From positions 1-59,337 of the forward strand of contig CBDUAR010000001.1 of assembly GCA_965365175.1 (NCBI GenBank): 59,337 nt of DNA, given 5' to 3'. A model generated the notes under the pieces. It had not been told where the DNA came from. It was given only the letters and a program-made list of their open reading frames with translations, and made no database searches. Of the stretch, positions 17,008 to 22,563 are shown piece after piece (positions within the stretch are counted from its first letter, which is position 1; the number at the start of each line of letters is the position of its first letter). Both the position numbers and the translations under genes were made by a program. This DNA is from an uncultured archaeon (GTDB lineage Archaea > Nanobdellota > Nanobdellia > Pacearchaeales > GW2011-AR1).

Positions 17008-17340
17008 TTACAATAACTTGTTCAACTTTTCTTCAATGTCTTCTTCAGTCATTGAACCAATAAATTGTTCCACCATCTTACCATCCTTGAAAACGGTAAA
17101 GTTAGGAATAGAACTAACATTAAATTTTTGAGCAAGTGCTTGGCCTCCTTCGCCAACATTTACTTTACCAAACTTCACCTTCCCTTTCAATTTTTCACTA
17201 AGATCATCAATAATAGGAGACATCATCATACATGGCATACACCATTCAGCAAAAAAGTCAATAAGCACAACACCCTCTTTAGTGAAATCATCGAATTCTG
17301 CTGCACTGCTCAATTCAGGAACTTTATCATTATCTGTCAT
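17008..17340 (-). CDS. trx: thioredoxin
   Basis: Active site FFAEWCMPC (WCxxC), thioredoxin fold length; start set at MTDNDKV (17340). Confidence 0.85.
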   Translation of the reverse strand: MTDNDKVPELSSAAEFDDFTKEGVVLIDFFAEWCMPCMMMSPIIDDLSEKLKGKVKFGKVNVGEGGQALAQKFNVSSIPNFTVFKDGKMVEQFIGSMTEEDIEEKLNKLL

Positions 17341-17362
17341 GATTTTAATTACTAATGCCAAT

Positions 17363-17662
17363 TTATAAGTTTTTGGTTTGGACACCTCTACCCCTTCCAT
17401 TCCCCTTTCCAATATAAATATATTCTCTCATAGATTTTGAAAATCTTAATGTAACTTGATCTCCCTCTTCTATTACATAAGTTTCGTTTCCCTCTTTTAA
17501 TGAAAGACTAGTAGGATAAAAGACAAGTGTTCCAGCAATTTTTGGTATATTGATTTTTCTAAGATCTCTCTTTTTCTTTAACCATATTGAATCTCCCAAC
17601 ATTCCAATCAATTTTGAATAGCCAATTGTTGCTTTTTCTTTAACTCTTCCAGCCATTTTCAT
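17363..17662 (-). CDS. hypothetical protein
   Basis: 99-aa ORF upstream of trx; no motif recognised. Confidence 0.35.
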   Translation of the reverse strand: MKMAGRVKEKATIGYSKLIGMLGDSIWLKKKRDLRKINIPKIAGTLVFYPTSLSLKEGNETYVIEEGDQVTLRFSKSMREYIYIGKGNGRGRGVQTKNL

Positions 17663-17693: not shown

Positions 17694-17993
17694 TTAAGAA
17701 TTATTATACTCTAACCAACCTTTTATTCCCTTATCAACTCTTTCAATATTATATCCTTTTTTTCTCAGTTCTTTTGCTACTATTCCACTTCTACTTCCAT
17801 ATAAACACACAACAACAATCTTTTTTCTTTTAGGAAGCTTCTTCAAAGAACTCATTAGGAAAACTTTTCCCATAGGAATATTTTTAGCACCTTTTACTTT
17901 TTCCTTACTCTTCTTATATTCATCAGCCTCTCTAACATCAATAATCAAGGCACCCTTTTTCTTCAACACCTCTGCAAGTTGCTTTGGTTTCAT
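17694..17993 (-). CDS. single-domain rhodanese-like sulfurtransferase
   Basis: IIDVREADEY ... VVVCLYGSRSGIVA active-site Cys loop. Confidence 0.75.
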   Translation of the reverse strand: MKPKQLAEVLKKKGALIIDVREADEYKKSKEKVKGAKNIPMGKVFLMSSLKKLPKRKKIVVVCLYGSRSGIVAKELRKKGYNIERVDKGIKGWLEYNNS

Positions 17994-18258: not shown

Positions 18259-18325
18259 TTTAGGTTATTTCTCAAAACTGCTAGCACTTTATAAGAATTA
18301 TTGTGATGTTCTTGCAGGACGTTTA

Positions 18326-18613: not shown

Positions 18614-18708
18614 TGTATTTTCTCAGAATTATGCTTCTGAGGTGCAAACACCTCTAAAATTAGATATTCTGTTTATTTATAAAACTAACGAACGCTCTTG
18701 CAGGGCGT

Positions 18709-19047
18709 TTACTCAGAACTTTCTTCAGAGTCACCTTTATGCGCAAATCCACCTTTTCTAAATGCTGGAGCCATACTTAACTCTCCAAAAACAATATTAT
18801 TCAATCCTTTTAGTGCTCCCCTAACATTTTCACTCAATGTATCACTATTTGTGCTTGTTACACCTATCCTAACATCTCTTATTTCATCTCCATAATCATG
18901 ATGTCTTACTTCACCAGAGCCTTCAAATCTTAAAGAATCATTTTCTTCCACAAATTTCATTGCTTCAGTATAAATTCTCATAGGCATTGAATCATAAACT
19001 ATTCCGTTTCCGCCAAACAAACTCTGTTTCCTTTCTTCATCATCCAT
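18709..19047 (-). CDS. hypothetical protein
   Basis: 112-aa ORF; followed by the conserved post-stop motif. Confidence 0.4.
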   Translation of the reverse strand: MDDEERKQSLFGGNGIVYDSMPMRIYTEAMKFVEENDSLRFEGSGEVRHHDYGDEIRDVRIGVTSTNSDTLSENVRGALKGLNNIVFGELSMAPAFRKGGFAHKGDSEESSE

Positions 19048-19137
19048 AAATTAAATATCATTAAACCCTTTATAAGAATTATTATACTAAAAAACATCTC
19101 TCTAAGATAATAAAATACTGTGTGTCCTTGCGGGGCG

Positions 19138-19836
19138 TTATACTCTAACCTCAACTTTTCCAAAATACCCATCAAGAATCTCTTTGAGTTCATTTAGATA
19201 CTCTTCTGAGATATCTTTTTTCTTACCAAATTCAGGATCAACAAATTTTTCCTTATTCTTAAAACCTTGAAGAGCAAATTTTCTCGGTTTACCTGCACAT
19301 AATGTATTCAACCATTGTGCAATCTCTTCCATATCTTTTACATCGTGATCAACAATAGTGGTTCTAAACTCATAATAATTTAACAGCGAAGAAATAACTT
19401 TAATGCTCTTTTCAATTTTGTTAATATCTACTTCACAATTTGCGACTTCAGGATATTTATCTTTAGAAGTTTTAATATCCATAGAAACATAATCAATCAA
19501 TCCTTTCTTAATCAATTCTTCAAGTAGTTCCGGAAAACTTCCGTTGGTATCAATCTTGATAGAATAACCTAAATCTTTTATTTTTTTTAAGAAATTAACA
19601 TCAATAGTCATTAGAGGCTCACCACCAGTAATACAAACTCCTTCCAATTGACCTTTTCTTTTTTCTAGAAATTTTAAGATTTCTGCTTCAGAATGTTCCT
19701 CTCCCATTGGAGCCAGGACTAATTCTGGATTATGGCAGAAACCACATCGGAAATTACAGCCAAATAAAAATAAAGTACAGGCTATTTTCCCCGGGTAGTC
19801 TACTAGCGTCAGCTCTTGAAGACCTTGAATTTTCAT
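19138..19836 (-). CDS. nrdG: anaerobic ribonucleotide reductase activating enzyme (radical SAM)
   Basis: LVDYPGKIACTLFLFGCNFRCGFCHN (CxxxCxxC); last gene of the nrd operon. Confidence 0.9.
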   Translation of the reverse strand: MKIQGLQELTLVDYPGKIACTLFLFGCNFRCGFCHNPELVLAPMGEEHSEAEILKFLEKRKGQLEGVCITGGEPLMTIDVNFLKKIKDLGYSIKIDTNGSFPELLEELIKKGLIDYVSMDIKTSKDKYPEVANCEVDINKIEKSIKVISSLLNYYEFRTTIVDHDVKDMEEIAQWLNTLCAGKPRKFALQGFKNKEKFVDPEFGKKKDISEEYLNELKEILDGYFGKVEVRV

Positions 19837-19838
19837 CT

Positions 19839-19964
19839 TTAAGCAGCTGAAGCTTCAAACATTACTCTATCATCCCATTCACACTGCTTACCTTCATTCC
19901 ATTGTTGTTTGGGTCTAATATAACCACACACCCTTGAATACACTTCACATTTAGTTCTTTTCAT
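19839..19964 (-). CDS. 41-aa stand-alone glycyl-radical peptide matching the C-terminus of NrdD
   Basis: My translation: MKRTKCEVYSRVCGYIRPKQQWNEGKQCEWDDRVMFEASAA, containing the RVxGY glycyl-radical motif. GGAGG lies 11 nt upstream of the ATG; the stop is 2 nt from the nrdG ATG. Confidence 0.7.
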   Translation of the reverse strand: MKRTKCEVYSRVCGYIRPKQQWNEGKQCEWDDRVMFEASAA

Positions 19965-19984
19965 TTTTTGTTTTTCCTCCTTTT

Positions 19985-22111
19985 TTAATAAACCTCCGCA
20001 GGAGAATCCTGCGTAATTTCTTTTACTTCCATTCCCTTAACAGCATCAATCGTCTGAGCTCTATTTGCCATTCTCAACTCATTAACTTCTGTCTCTTGCT
20101 CTTTATCAAATCCATTTTCTAAGTCACACTTTGGACAGTAAACATGTTCACCAGCCAAATATCCGTGTTTAGGACAAATAGAGAATGTTGGAGTAATAGT
20201 GAAATAAGGTAAGTGATAACCTTCAGCAATTTTCTTTACCATCTTTTTAACCCCTTCTTTAGTCAGTTTTTCACCAATAAAACCATGAAGAACAGTTCCA
20301 CCTGTATACTGAATTTGCAATTCATCTTGAAGATCAAGAGCTGCAAACAAATCCGGAGTGTAATCTACTGGCAATTGAGTAGAGTTAGTATAATATGGTT
20401 TAGCACCTTCTTCTCTTACTGCTTTCTCGTTTGCCACAAGAATTCTACCAAATCTCTTTTTGTCATTTCTAGCGAATCTATAAGTTGTACCTTCTCCAGG
20501 AGTTGCTTCTAAGTTGTAAATATTTCCAGTTTCCTCTTGGAATTCTTCTAACTTGCTTCTCATAAATTTTAACACATTTAATGCGAATTCTTTTCCTCTT
20601 TCAGTTGCAATAGTTTCTCCTGGCATGAAATTCATTATAGCCTCATTCATTCCCAATAACCCAATAGTACCAAAATGATTTTTCCAATACTCTCCAGTTC
20701 TAGACTTAACACTTCTTAAGTAAAATCTTGAATAAGGATAAAGTCCCTTCTCTGTAAATTTCTCAATAGATTTTCTCTTAATTTCTAAACTCTCTTTAGC
20801 CAATTCCATTAATCTTCCTAATCTAGACAGGAAATCCTCCTCAGTTAAACAAGTAAACCCTAATCTTGGCATATTAATTGTAACAACACCAATACTTCCA
20901 GTTAAAGGATTTGAACCAAATAATCCTCCTCCCCTCTTTCTCAGTTCTGTCTGATCTAACCTTAACCTACAACACATACTTCTAGCATCCTCTGGTTTCA
21001 TATCCGAATTAATAAAATTAGAAAAATAGGGAATACCATATTTTGCAGTCATGTCCCAAATAGTATCATATTCTGGATTATCCCAATCGAAATCTTTTGT
21101 AATATTATAAGTTGGAATAGGAAATGTAAACACTCTTCCATCAGCATCTCCCTCAATCATAGCTTCAGCAAATGCCTGGTTAATCATTATCATTTCTTTT
21201 TTGAATTCTTTATATGTTTCAGGCATAGGTTTCCCTCCAATAATAACTGGCTCATCTTTCATATATGTTGGAACTTCTAAGTCCATTGTTATATTTGTAA
21301 ATGGAGTCTGAAAACCAACTCTAGTAGGAACAGCAAGGTTAAACAAAAATTCTTGCATAGCCTGTTTAACTTCTTTGTAATCTAAATCATCATATCTAAC
21401 AAAAGGTGCCAATAAAGTATCAAAATTAGAGAAAGCCTGAGCTCCTGCAGTTTCACCTTGTAATGTATAAAAGAAATTTACTAGTTGTCCCAATGCAGTT
21501 CTAAAATGTTTTGGAGGTTTTGAAGCCACTTTTCCAGCAACTCCTTTAAATCCAGTCAACAAAACATCTTTCAAATCCCATCCAACACAATACGCTCCCA
21601 AGGTGCCAAGATCATGAATGTGTAGATCACTAGCTTCATGCGCTTGTCTTATAGCCTCGGGATAAACTCTTCTTACCCAGTAATTATTAATTATTTTAGT
21701 AGCAATATAATTATTCAAACCTTGCAATGAAAATCCCATATTTGAATTTTCCTTAACCATCCAATCATTTAAACCAATGTAATCATCAACAACTTCAATT
21801 GTATCAAACAAACCTTTAACATTTCTTAATTCTTCATGACTCTTTCTGTAAAGAATATATGCCTTAGCTACTTTAGCATGACCTTCTTCAATTAATAATT
21901 TTTCAACAGAATCTTGAACATCTTCTACTTCCGGAATTCCTGTCTCTCCGAATCTTTCGTCAAGAATTTTCATTAATTTTTCAGACAACACTTGAGATCT
22001 TTCTCTATCTTTTCCTCCAACTGCTTTTGCAGCTTTCCAAATAGCCTCACTAATTTTATCCTTCTCAAAAGGAACTACACTTCCATCTCTCTTTCTAATT
22101 TTCCTTACCAT
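19985..22111 (-). CDS. nrdD: anaerobic (class III) ribonucleoside-triphosphate reductase large chain lacking the glycyl-radical loop
   Basis: N-terminal ATP-cone, RSMCCRL thiyl-Cys loop, and PYFTITPTFSICPKHGYLAGEHVYCPKCD Zn site. No RVxGY; the C-terminal 45 aa look non-conserved. Confidence 0.92.
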   Translation of the reverse strand: MVRKIRKRDGSVVPFEKDKISEAIWKAAKAVGGKDRERSQVLSEKLMKILDERFGETGIPEVEDVQDSVEKLLIEEGHAKVAKAYILYRKSHEELRNVKGLFDTIEVVDDYIGLNDWMVKENSNMGFSLQGLNNYIATKIINNYWVRRVYPEAIRQAHEASDLHIHDLGTLGAYCVGWDLKDVLLTGFKGVAGKVASKPPKHFRTALGQLVNFFYTLQGETAGAQAFSNFDTLLAPFVRYDDLDYKEVKQAMQEFLFNLAVPTRVGFQTPFTNITMDLEVPTYMKDEPVIIGGKPMPETYKEFKKEMIMINQAFAEAMIEGDADGRVFTFPIPTYNITKDFDWDNPEYDTIWDMTAKYGIPYFSNFINSDMKPEDARSMCCRLRLDQTELRKRGGGLFGSNPLTGSIGVVTINMPRLGFTCLTEEDFLSRLGRLMELAKESLEIKRKSIEKFTEKGLYPYSRFYLRSVKSRTGEYWKNHFGTIGLLGMNEAIMNFMPGETIATERGKEFALNVLKFMRSKLEEFQEETGNIYNLEATPGEGTTYRFARNDKKRFGRILVANEKAVREEGAKPYYTNSTQLPVDYTPDLFAALDLQDELQIQYTGGTVLHGFIGEKLTKEGVKKMVKKIAEGYHLPYFTITPTFSICPKHGYLAGEHVYCPKCDLENGFDKEQETEVNELRMANRAQTIDAVKGMEVKEITQDSPAEVY

Positions 22112-22563
22112 TATAATGCACTAATCTCCTTTCTAAAATCTTTAATATCTTGAAAGTCTCTATAAACAGAAGCAAATCTAATGTAGGCAACATTATCAAT
22201 TTTCTTTAACTTTTTCATAATTAATTCACCAATAGTAGAACTCTTCAATTCTCTCTTCCCTTTTTTTCTTAATTGTTCTTCAATTTCGTTTATCATCTTA
22301 TCAATTTTTTCTTTTGGTATAGGACGCTTCTCAAAAGCTTTCTGGATTCCTCCTTTCAGCTTTTCTGAATCAAACGTTTCCCTCTTACCATCTTTCTTTA
22401 TTACATACAATCCATCCTTACTCACTCGCTCATAAGTGGTATATCTCTTGTTGCATTTCAGGCATTCTCTACGCCTTCTCACGCCCTCTGGAGAGCTTCT
22501 TTTATCTGTAACTTTTGATGTTTTATTTGAGCAATATGGACAGTCCACAATTTCTACAAACAT
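22111..22563 (-). CDS. nrdR: NrdR transcriptional repressor (Zn ribbon + ATP-cone)
   Basis: CPYC...RRRRECLKCNKRYTTYE and VAYIRFASVYRDFQDIKDF closely match bacterial NrdR; the stop overlaps the nrdD ATG (TAATG). Confidence 0.92.
   Translation of the reverse strand: MFVEIVDCPYCSNKTSKVTDKRSSPEGVRRRRECLKCNKRYTTYERVSKDGLYVIKKDGKRETFDSEKLKGGIQKAFEKRPIPKEKIDKMINEIEEQLRKKGKRELKSSTIGELIMKKLKKIDNVAYIRFASVYRDFQDIKDFRKEISAL

What the first reader, a model, noticed from the sequence alone, without database searches (positions are those of the whole stretch)
19839..20140. Class III ribonucleotide reductase in pieces: glycyl-radical loop on a separate 41-codon ORF between nrdD and nrdG
The 708-aa NrdD has an ATP-cone, the thiyl-Cys loop and the Zn site ...FSICPKHGYLAGEHVYCPKCD. 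It lacks the RVxGY glycyl-radical motif. After CPKCD come 45 unconserved residues ending ...DSPAEVY*.

Twenty nucleotides later a separate ORF encodes MKRTKCEVYSRVCGYIRPKQQWNEGKQCEWDDRVMFEASAA.
- This is the canonical NrdD C-terminus (EVYSRVxGY.RP..WN.GK..E..DR).
- GGAGG (19976-19980) sits 11 nt before its ATG.
- Its stop is 2 nt from the nrdG ATG.
- The two ORFs are in different frames (offset 2 mod 3), so simple readthrough cannot fuse them.
- The large ORF ends in AEVY and the peptide's conserved part begins CEVY, as if the C-terminus had been duplicated or disrupted by an insertion.

There are two functional readings. One is a two-chain RNR whose radical domain docks non-covalently and is activated by NrdG. 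The other is a stand-alone radical peptide comparable to GrcA/YfiD, the spare part for pyruvate formate-lyase. I do not know of a described NrdD with this arrangement.
Basis: partly seen in the sequence, partly recalled or inferred. Interest (0 to 1): 0.7.

Follow-up and report, generated by a model that had tools for sequence, protein, structure and literature searches.

The report
Two-piece anaerobic ribonucleotide reductase
In this tiny-celled archaeon, and in dozens of related species, the enzyme that makes DNA building blocks without oxygen keeps its radical-carrying glycine on a separate 41-amino-acid protein, an arrangement I could not find described for this enzyme class.

Summary
The minus strand carries an operon nrdR, nrdD-large (708 aa), a 41-codon ORF and nrdG. 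The large ORF matches Pfam NRDD profile positions 1-530 and stops after the zinc site. The small ORF matches positions 531-562, which hold the radical glycine.

It is neither an error nor a decaying remnant.
- Among 83 relatives' loci, 61 are split and every one keeps the small ORF.
- The small ORF always starts with ATG, usually after a GGAGG/GAGGT site, and lies upstream of nrdG.
- It occurs in all three relative frames, from overlaps to a 132-nt gap.
- It is under purifying selection (pN/pS 0.165, against 0.117 for the barrel and 0.395 for the large-ORF tail).
- Split and fused forms interleave on the tree.

This rules out frameshift, readthrough, ribosome hopping and pseudogene readings. 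The AEVY/CEVY echo is lineage-specific and is probably a footprint of a ribosome-binding site.

The best reading is a two-chain class III RNR, widespread in DPANN archaea and some CPR bacteria, whose radical peptide docks non-covalently and is activated by NrdG. I found no published description.

Side finding: many viral contigs carry orphan NrdD-type radical peptides with no nrdD nearby.

The parts
22111..22563 (-). nrdR (Zn-ribbon plus ATP-cone repressor), first gene of the operon. Its stop overlaps the nrdD start.
   Evidence: NCBIfam TIGR00244, E 1e-56. Gene call in the ENA copy of the contig. Present upstream of nrdD in most DPANN loci.
19985..22111 (-). nrdD large chain, 708 aa: ATP-cone, 10-stranded barrel and Zn site, with no glycyl-radical loop.
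   Evidence: Pfam PF13597 profile positions 1-530 of 562 and PF03477. NCBIfam NF006126, 1037 bits. AF2 model with a confident barrel.
21830..22102 (-). ATP-cone domain (residues 4-94).
   Evidence: Pfam PF03477, E 4.5e-21.
20960..20980 (-). Finger loop SMCCRLR (residues 378-384) carrying the thiyl-radical cysteine; double-Cys type.
   Evidence: Invariant S378 M379 C380 C381 R382 L383 R384 in 73 homologues.
20126..20176 (-). Zn site C646-P-K-H649 ... C659-P-K-C662, the last conserved element of the large chain.
   Evidence: Invariant columns C646, H649, C659 and C662. Aligns to the Zn ribbon of P. copri and T. maritima NrdD.
19988..20122 (-). Variable 45-residue tail (residues 664-708) ending AEVY. 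It contains the semi-conserved ANRAQTIDAV helix and a DSP motif.
   Evidence: Tails in relatives are 8-89 aa with little conservation; 42 of 111 have the ANRAQxI-like motif. AF2 gives low confidence except for a helix at 684-691. pN/pS is 0.395.
19965..19984 (-). 20-nt spacer with the Shine-Dalgarno GGAGG (19976-19980), 11 nt before the small-ORF ATG.
   Evidence: Read from the sequence. A 5-mer SD core precedes an in-frame ATG in 49 of 61 split loci, against 3.1% of background ATGs. The spacer is 17 and 15 nt in the closest relatives.
19839..19964 (-). nrdD small chain, 41 aa: the glycyl-radical loop RVCG14Y and the C-terminal segment. The Gly14 codon is at 19923-19925.
   Evidence: Pfam NRDD profile positions 531-562. 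Present in 61 of 61 split loci. pN/pS 0.165. C6, S10, R11, G14, Q21-K26 and E29 are invariant in 59 peptides.
19138..19836 (-). nrdG, the radical-SAM activase. Its ATG is 2 nt after the small-ORF stop.
   Evidence: NCBIfam TIGR02495 NrdG2, E 1.7e-57. Downstream of the radical segment in all 83 cellular loci.

Best explanation
This is a naturally split, two-chain class III (anaerobic) ribonucleotide reductase. The large chain provides the ATP-cone, the catalytic barrel with the thiyl-cysteine finger loop, and the zinc site. A separately translated 41-residue peptide provides the radical glycine (Gly14 in RVCGY) and the C-terminal segment that follows it in ordinary NrdD.

Shown here:
- The peptide has its own ribosome-binding site and ATG.
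- It is conserved and under purifying selection.
- It always accompanies a truncated large chain and always precedes nrdG.
- The split lies exactly in the variable linker between the last zinc-site cysteine and the strand leading into the glycine loop.
- Split and fused forms have interconverted several times.

Inferred:
- The peptide inserts non-covalently into the barrel of the large chain, placing Gly14 next to the finger-loop cysteine.
- NrdG abstracts the glycine hydrogen, either on the free peptide or on a flipped-out docked peptide.
- Catalysis then proceeds as in single-chain NrdD.

Why the split persists is unresolved. It may be a neutral fission tolerated because the radical domain is already a mobile, self-docking module. 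Alternatively it may be useful because an oxygen-cleaved radical peptide can be replaced cheaply without remaking a 708-residue enzyme.
For: - Complementary Pfam coverage: positions 1-530 and 531-562 of one profile.
- About 110 of the 120 closest NrdD homologues (75-100% identity) end shortly after CPxC and lack the RVxGY motif.
- Of 83 loci (80 species-representative genomes, two close relatives and the window), 61 are split and 22 are fused. Every split locus has a downstream small ORF with the motif.
- In the 55 loci parsed automatically, the start codon is always ATG, frame offsets 0/1/2 occur 12/22/21 times, and the median peptide is 43 aa. The gap is typically -23 to +70 nt. The -137 and -131 values in the table come from the script picking an upstream ATG.
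- An SD 5-mer precedes an in-frame ATG in 49 of 61 split loci, against 3.1% of background ATGs.
- Pooled pN/pS is 0.165 for the small ORF, 0.117 for the barrel and 0.395 for the tail.
- nrdG lies downstream of the radical segment in all 83 loci.
- Natural fused relatives read ...SKRTKCEVYSRVVGY..., so the peptide's N-terminus is homologous to the linker end of fused enzymes.
- On an NJ tree, split and fused states need at least 6 changes, including one fused gene (L004) nested in the split clade.
- In a profile search of 1.84 billion cluster representatives, 149 of the 150 best hits are small proteins of 41-149 aa. None carries zinc-site residues upstream of the motif.
- Published cryo-EM and HDX work on P. 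copri NrdD shows the glycyl radical domain is highly mobile and behaves as a rigid body (PMC11226230).
- From my own knowledge, not checked here: PFL activase accepts short glycine-loop peptides as substrates, and GrcA can carry a glycyl radical on its own.
Against: - There is no biochemical, transcript or proteomic evidence. Nothing here shows that the peptide binds the large chain or carries a radical.
- Only the 59-kb window and ±3 kb flanks of relatives were examined. A second, divergent full-length nrdD elsewhere in these genomes is not excluded.
- AF2 could not be run on the two chains together. The fused-relative model gave only pLDDT 46-62 for the radical segment, so docking is not supported structurally.
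- The tree is a simple NJ tree without support values.
- A 41-residue peptide holding a stable radical in a non-covalent complex has no precedent in RNR.
Confidence: 0.8

Rival explanations
1. The small ORF is only a spare part, like GrcA/YfiD for pyruvate formate-lyase. It would repair an oxygen-damaged full-length NrdD encoded elsewhere, and the truncated large ORF here would be non-functional or do something else.
For: Orphan NrdD-type radical peptides with no nrdD nearby do exist on viral contigs, so trans-acting use of such peptides is plausible. Only part of each genome was inspected.
Against: The large chain is under strong purifying selection (pN/pS 0.117) and keeps all catalytic motifs. 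Truncated large chain and peptide co-occur in 61 of 61 loci, next to nrdG and under nrdR. The window has no second nrdD. The 80 best genome loci came from 80 different assemblies. The peptide matches Pfam NRDD and not the PFL-type Gly_radical family.
Confidence: 0.05
2. Recoding or RNA processing joins the two ORFs into one chain. Candidates are translational bypassing (TAT-TAA take-off and a TAT landing codon 47 nt downstream, as in T4 gene 60), a frameshift, stop-codon readthrough, or removal of a small intron.
For: In the window, a TAT codon followed by TAA ends the large ORF, and a TAT lies exactly 47 nt downstream. Joining them would recreate EVY|SRVCGY. A 7-bp hairpin sits just 5' of the stop.
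Against: The spacer is 17 and 15 nt in the 93% and 90% relatives, which changes both distance and frame. The AEVY ending is limited to three close relatives. Across split loci all three frames, all three stop codons, overlaps and gaps up to 132 nt occur. An own ATG and SD are conserved. The junction RNA folds no better than shuffles, z = -0.05. Rfam finds no intron or other RNA family in the window. No intein motifs are present, since the whole 41-aa peptide is NrdD-homologous.
Confidence: 0.03
3. Pseudogene or assembly artefact: a broken nrdD decaying in a reduced genome.
For: DPANN genomes are reduced and many are fragmentary metagenome bins. The small ORF is not annotated in the NCBI copy of this contig: the 41-aa protein is listed only from Logan and ENA sources.
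Against: Two independent assemblies give the same sequence. There are 61 split loci from different species and samples. The peptide is under purifying selection. SD, ATG and nrdG coupling are conserved.
Confidence: 0.02

Closest known systems
Canonical single-chain class III RNR NrdD with NrdG (phage T4 1H78/1H7A, T. maritima 4COI/4U3E, P. copri 8P23)
   Same: The same family (NF006126/PF13597) and the same domain order: ATP-cone, barrel, finger-loop cysteine, Zn site, then the glycine loop SRVxGY and a C-terminal segment. The same adjacent NrdG2 activase.
   Different: In every characterised NrdD, the Zn site and the radical glycine are on one polypeptide. Here the chain ends after the Zn site plus a variable tail. 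The glycine loop is a separately initiated 41-aa protein.
GrcA/YfiD of E. coli and Y06I of phage T4 (autonomous glycyl radical cofactors for pyruvate formate-lyase)
   Same: A small stand-alone protein that carries the radical glycine motif of a glycyl radical enzyme and acts in trans on a large barrel protein.
   Different: GrcA is PFL-type (Pfam Gly_radical) and about 127 aa. It supplements a PFL that has its own radical domain, after oxygen damage. The peptide here is NrdD-type and 41 aa, and it is the only radical loop available to its partner. A 2026 review states that formate lyases are the only GRE class with identified spare-part proteins (PMC13450708).
Split class II RNR NrdJa/NrdJb of Pseudomonas aeruginosa
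   Same: An RNR catalytic subunit encoded as two consecutive genes that must associate to be active. It is cited in PMC9669993.
   Different: It belongs to a different class (B12-dependent, no glycyl radical). The split is at a different place, and the second piece is a large domain rather than a roughly 40-aa radical peptide.
Split protein genes of Nanoarchaeota/DPANN (e.g. Nanoarchaeum equitans reverse gyrase, alanyl-tRNA synthetase; from my own knowledge, not checked here)
   Same: The same kind of organisms and the same phenomenon of gene fission at a domain linker.
   Different: Those split genes are usually dispersed in the genome. Here the pieces are adjacent, translationally coupled with the activase gene, and the split also occurs in CPR bacteria.

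Membership tests
Class III ribonucleotide reductase NrdD (PF13597 / NF006126) | Barrel with finger-loop thiyl cysteine | tested here: met
   Pfam NRDD E 1e-178 and NF006126 1037 bits. SMCCRLR is invariant.
Class III ribonucleotide reductase NrdD (PF13597 / NF006126) | C-terminal structural Zn site | tested here: met
   C646, H649, C659 and C662 are invariant and align to the Zn ribbon of solved NrdDs. Metal binding itself was not tested.
Class III ribonucleotide reductase NrdD (PF13597 / NF006126) | Radical glycine motif RVxGY on the same polypeptide as the barrel | tested here: not met
   The large ORF stops before the motif. The motif is on the separate ORF 19839-19964. The system as a whole has the motif; the single chain does not.
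Class III ribonucleotide reductase NrdD (PF13597 / NF006126) | Dedicated radical-SAM activase NrdG encoded alongside | tested here: met
   TIGR02495 E 1.7e-57, 2 nt downstream of the small ORF. Adjacent in all 83 loci.
Class III ribonucleotide reductase NrdD (PF13597 / NF006126) | Glycyl radical formed and NTP reduced | not testable with these tools
   Needs EPR and an activity assay.
GrcA/YfiD autonomous glycyl radical cofactor | PFL-type glycyl radical domain (Pfam Gly_radical PF01228) | tested here: not met
   The small ORF hits only NRDD at E <= 0.01.
GrcA/YfiD autonomous glycyl radical cofactor | Partner enzyme has its own radical domain that the small protein replaces after damage | tested here: not met
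   The large chain lacks the radical loop in 61 of 61 split loci.
Programmed translational bypassing (T4 gene 60 type) | Matched take-off and landing codons at a conserved distance | tested here: not met
   TAT...47 nt...TAT occurs in the window only. The distance is 44 and 42 nt in the closest relatives, and the take-off context is absent at 86% identity.
Programmed translational bypassing (T4 gene 60 type) | Downstream part lacks independent initiation signals | tested here: not met
   ATG in every locus parsed for a start codon, and an SD 5-mer in 49 of 61 loci.
Split intein / protein trans-splicing | N-intein at the end of the first ORF and C-intein at the start of the second | tested here: not met
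   Tails are 8-89 aa, variable and without intein domains. The small ORF is NrdD-homologous from residue 4. Inteins seen in some relatives sit inside the barrel, not at the junction.

The most novel reading that the evidence does not exclude
The NrdD radical loop is an exchangeable, diffusible 'radical cartridge'. NrdG would charge the free 40-residue peptide, which then plugs into the large chain and is swapped out after oxygen cleavage or under dATP inhibition. Viruses of anaerobes would exploit the same principle by encoding orphan NrdD-type radical peptides or whole radical domains. Examples are the ORF between the terminase and portal genes in L087 and the 144-aa 'nrdD' of ANMV-1. These would recharge or commandeer the host's reductase during infection. 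That would extend the GrcA spare-part idea to ribonucleotide reduction and make it the default architecture in DPANN and CPR organisms.
Probability: 0.3. Interest if true: 0.85.

Novelty: new variant of a known kind. Interest (0 to 1): 0.72.

Why it matters
In every glycyl radical enzyme characterised so far, the radical glycine sits on the same chain as the active-site barrel. The one known exception is the GrcA rescue protein for PFL. A class III RNR whose radical glycine is on a separate 40-residue peptide as its normal state would change several things.

- It would be a natural minimal substrate for an NrdG activase.
- It would allow direct study of how the radical loop enters and leaves the barrel, which is an open problem in GRE activation.
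- It suggests a cheap repair route for an essential, oxygen-sensitive enzyme in ultra-small symbionts that live at oxic-anoxic interfaces.
- It matters for annotation. The 41-aa ORF is missing from some records, so these genomes can be scored as having a truncated or dead NrdD. Large RNR phylogenies that discard sequences under 400 aa will not see it (PMC9531940).
- The viral orphan peptides hint at a new class of auxiliary gene.

Tried and rejected
- **Translational bypass (my own idea from the TAT-TAA...47 nt...TAT spacing).** Rejected because the spacer length and frame change in the closest relatives, and AEVY is lineage-specific.
- **Frameshift or readthrough.** Rejected because all three frames, all three stop codons and overlaps occur.
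- **Intron or structured RNA at the junction.** Rfam found only tRNAs in the window, and the junction fold has z = -0.05.
- **Duplication or insertion origin of AEVY/CEVY.** Rejected. EV-containing endings recur as in-frame SD footprints.
- **AF2 of the large chain alone and of a natural fused relative.** The barrel is confident, but the radical segment and tail have low confidence, so nothing can be said about docking. The tool cannot model two chains and returns no coordinates, so the idea that peptide Cys6 joins the Zn site could not be tested.
- **First regex passes.** They missed four loci with RVVGF or RSVGY variants and one mis-picked ORF. All were resolved as split.
- **The nrdG regex.** It failed in many loci and was replaced by tblastn.
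- **L029 in the NJ tree.** It sits on an artefactually long branch, probably from wrong segment extraction, and should be ignored.
- **Literature searches** for a split NrdD, for RNR spare parts, and for DPANN or CPR NrdD found no description.
Full report
**1. What is in the window**

The finding lies on the minus strand. Reading 5' to 3' on that strand there are four tightly packed genes.
- nrdR: 22111-22563, TIGR00244.
- A 708-codon nrdD: 19985-22111.
- A 41-codon ORF: 19839-19964.
- nrdG: 19138-19836, TIGR02495.

The large ORF has an ATP-cone (residues 4-94), the finger loop SMCCRLR and the zinc site C646-x2-H649...C659-x2-C662. Then come 45 non-conserved residues ending AEVY and a TAA stop. 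Twenty nucleotides later, 11 nt after a GGAGG, the small ORF begins. It encodes MKRTKCEVYSRVCGYIRPKQQWNEGKQCEWDDRVMFEASAA, and its stop is 2 nt from the nrdG ATG.

Pfam gives the cleanest statement of the split. The large ORF covers NRDD profile positions 1-530 of 562, and the small ORF covers 531-562. Rfam finds only three tRNAs in the window. The window has no second nrdD or radical segment.

**2. It is not an error**

The identical large protein is recorded from two sources. The identical small ORF was called on an independent ENA assembly of the same contig. Relatives at 93% identity (Logan run SRR26786792) and 90% identity (JGI 3300060480) have the same nrdR, large, 41-aa and nrdG layout.

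**3. It is a clade-wide architecture**

Named relatives are Pacearchaeota and Nanoarchaeota, so the organism is a DPANN archaeon. Among the 120 closest NrdD homologues (75-100% identity), about 110 end 8-89 residues after CPxC and lack RVxGY.

I fetched DNA for 80 species-representative genomes. With the two close relatives and the window, that gives 83 loci: 61 split and 22 fused. Every split locus has a small ORF downstream with the motif xRTKCEVYSRVVGYLRPVxQWNEGKxAEFxDR. Four loci that first looked empty have minor variants (RVVGF, RSVGY).

The split occurs in these groups, by record title:
- Pacearchaeota, Woesearchaeota and Nanoarchaeota;
- Aenigmatarchaeota;
- Micrarchaeota;
- one bin labelled Thermoplasmatales;
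- CPR bacteria (Parcubacteria and Falkowbacteria).

Fused forms are found in Bathyarchaeota, in Firmicutes of the Thermovenabulum and Thermosediminibacter group, and in some other archaeal bins.

**4. The small ORF is translated on its own**

In the 55 loci parsed automatically, the start codon is always ATG. The relative frame is 0, 1 or 2 in 12, 22 and 21 loci, and the median peptide length is 43 aa. The junction runs from overlaps to a 132-nt gap, typically -23 to +70 nt. All three stop codons end the large ORF.

A 5-mer Shine-Dalgarno core precedes an in-frame ATG in 49 of 61 split loci, against 3.1% of all ATG triplets in the same DNA. In the three closest genomes the spacer is 20, 17 and 15 nt, so even the frame relation is not conserved among near-identical relatives.

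This pattern fits independent initiation only. It excludes frameshifting, readthrough and a fixed-distance ribosome hop.

I had raised the hop idea myself. In the window a TAT-TAA ends the large ORF and a TAT lies exactly 47 nt downstream, the geometry of T4 gene 60. The relatives show this is a coincidence. The junction RNA is no more structured than shuffled sequence (z = -0.05).

**5. The small ORF is under selection**

I ran Nei-Gojobori comparisons on 17 pairs of related loci. Pooled pN/pS values are:
- small ORF, 0.165;
- 400 barrel codons, 0.117;
- large-ORF tail, 0.395.

In an alignment of 59 stand-alone peptides, C6, S10, R11, G14, Q21-K26 and E29 are invariant. The peptide is therefore a maintained coding gene, not a decaying remnant.

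**6. How the split arose**

Natural fused relatives with a linker read ...CPTCDKENNYKEGNAESASKRTKCEVYSRVVGY... (P0039). The peptide's N-terminus (M-KRTKCEVY) is therefore the end of a variable linker between the zinc site and the glycine loop. In a few genomes (L003, L007, L011, L052) the long variable stretch sits at the N-terminus of the small ORF instead of the C-terminus of the large one. The break point wanders within the linker.

On an NJ tree of the barrel region, the Pace/Woese/Nanoarchaeota clade is split throughout, apart from one nested fused gene (L004, linker reduced to D-V-RTRC). In deeper branches split and fused forms interleave, and parsimony needs at least six changes. That tree has no support values and one artefactual branch (L029), so the count is indicative only. 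The two architectures appear functionally interchangeable.

**7. The AEVY/CEVY echo**

Only the window and its two closest relatives end in AEVY. The relative at 86% identity ends IRLS, and others end ARIN, ARAM and so on. Nineteen of 61 truncated ORFs have EV in their last eight residues. This is mostly because the SD for the small ORF (GGAGGT or GAGGT) lies in frame and reads Glu-Val, as in KEVIY* and KEVLY*. In the window the codons are GCG GAG GTT TAT TAA, which contain GGAGGT. I read the echo as a by-product, not as evidence of duplication or insertion.

**8. Where the cut lies in the structure**

The best solved relatives are P. copri NrdD (8P23), T. maritima NrdD (4COI, 4U3E) and T4 NrdD (1H78). 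In P. copri the glycyl radical domain has three parts: a structural Zn site, then the buried loop with the radical glycine, then a tail across the surface. That domain is highly mobile, behaves as a rigid body and becomes invisible under dATP inhibition (PMC11226230).

The split here falls inside that domain. The Zn site stays with the large chain. The glycine loop and the following segment form the peptide.

AF2 of the large chain alone gives a confident barrel. The tail has low confidence apart from a short helix at 684-691, the semi-conserved ANRAQTIDAV motif. AF2 of a fused relative gave only pLDDT 46-62 for the radical segment and says nothing about docking.

**9. Mechanism**

Shown: two separately translated chains, both under selection, always together and always with nrdG.

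Inferred: the peptide docks non-covalently into the barrel so that Gly14 faces the finger-loop cysteine. NrdG generates the radical on the free or flipped-out peptide, and catalysis then follows the normal class III route.

Two facts make the inference reasonable. Activases are known to accept short glycine-loop peptides (from my own knowledge, not checked here). The radical domain is also already a mobile module in single-chain enzymes.

Whether the split is adaptive or a neutral fission in small genomes is open. The adaptive version would be cheap replacement of an oxygen-cleaved radical loop.

**10. Novelty**

Full-text searches found no description of a split NrdD or an RNR spare part. [quoted passage not shown] The large RNR phylogeny of 2022 removed sequences under 400 residues (PMC9531940), which would hide the peptide.

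The family is not rare. A profile search of 1.84 billion cluster representatives returned 4806 hits at E <= 0.001. Of the best 150, 149 are small proteins of 41-149 aa, and none has zinc-site residues upstream of the motif. Pipelines that name them use the generic label 'anaerobic ribonucleoside-triphosphate reductase'.

The library I could search lacks most subscription journals, so a prior description cannot be fully excluded.

**11. Side finding: orphan radical peptides on viral contigs**

Scanning IMG/VR with the peptide alignment gave 174 relatives. Of the best 80, 63 carry the NrdD-type radical segment in an ORF of 39-160 aa. A profile search found a large nrdD within ±3.5 kb in only 14 loci and nrdG in only 3.
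- In L087 the ORF sits between the large terminase and a P22-like portal gene. L084 carries RusA.
- The archaeal virus ANMV-1 has a 144-aa ORF annotated as anaerobic RNR. It contains only a CxxC...CPKC ribbon and CEMYSRIVGYLRPVNQWNKGK.
- The ANMV-1 paper lists this ORF as nrdD without comment (PMC4372165).

These are true orphans and fit the GrcA-like reading. They also show that NrdD radical loops are used in trans in more than one setting.

**12. Verdict**

The best explanation is a conserved two-chain class III RNR (confidence 0.8 that it is a real, selected, separately translated system working with the large chain). It is a new variant of a known kind. It would interest RNR and radical-enzyme specialists and can be tested directly by co-expression and EPR.

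Noticed in passing
L084-L163 (IMG/VR viral contigs); L164:3686-4120 (ANMV-1 virus KP703175): 63 of the 80 best viral matches carry an NrdD-type glycyl-radical segment in a 39-160 aa ORF. Most have no large nrdD or nrdG within ±3.5 kb: nrdD was found in 14 of 80 loci and nrdG in 3 of 80. In L087 the ORF sits between the terminase and portal genes. The 144-aa 'nrdD' of ANMV-1 is only a Zn ribbon plus the radical loop. These are possible viral spare parts for the host NrdD.
   Followed up: partly
window 19127-19139, 18697-18709, 18311-18323 (minus-strand sense AAACGYCCYGCAAG): A 13-nt motif occurs exactly three times (0.02 expected). Each copy lies directly after the stop codon of one of three consecutive genes downstream of nrdG. 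Each is followed by a TATA-like TTATAAA before the next ATG. It may be a shared terminator or regulatory box.
   Followed up: partly
window 22111-22563 (-): An NrdR repressor (typically bacterial) lies directly upstream of nrdD and overlaps it in this archaeon. It is present in most DPANN loci examined. NrdR boxes were not searched for.
   Followed up: no
window 19988-20122 (-); tails of P0001-P0120: The otherwise variable tail of the truncated large chain carries a semi-conserved A-N-R-A-Q-x-I-D-A motif in 42 of 111 relatives, often followed by DSP. AF2 predicts a short helix there (residues 684-691). Its function is unknown; it might contact the peptide or NrdG.
   Followed up: partly
window 19947-19949 (-), Cys6 of the small ORF: The cysteine in RTKCEVY is invariant in 59 stand-alone peptides and conserved in fused relatives of this subfamily. 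The equivalent residue is Ile or Val in P. copri and T. maritima NrdD. It could be an extra Zn or redox ligand bridging the two chains. This could not be tested without coordinates.
   Followed up: no
P0012, P0013, P0015, P0045, P0055, P0066, P0092; L058: Several close NrdD relatives are 1004-1110 aa, and five of them (P0013, P0015, P0055, P0066, P0092) carry intein or LAGLIDADG domains inside the barrel. L058 has both a large insertion in nrdD (1037 aa) and the split radical peptide.
   Followed up: no
window 17008-17412 (-) and 17694-17993 (-): Thioredoxin and rhodanese genes lie about 1-2 kb downstream of the nrd operon on the same strand. The finger loop is the double-cysteine MCCR type, so this enzyme may use thioredoxin rather than formate as its reductant.
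   Followed up: no
P0185, P0188, P0194 (small-peptide cluster representatives): Three stand-alone peptides contain an internal tandem duplication of the radical motif (e.g. ...CEVYSRVVGYLSPVSHWNEGKKEEWEVYSRVVGYLSPVSHWNEGKKEEW...). These are either assembly artefacts or real duplications.
   Followed up: no
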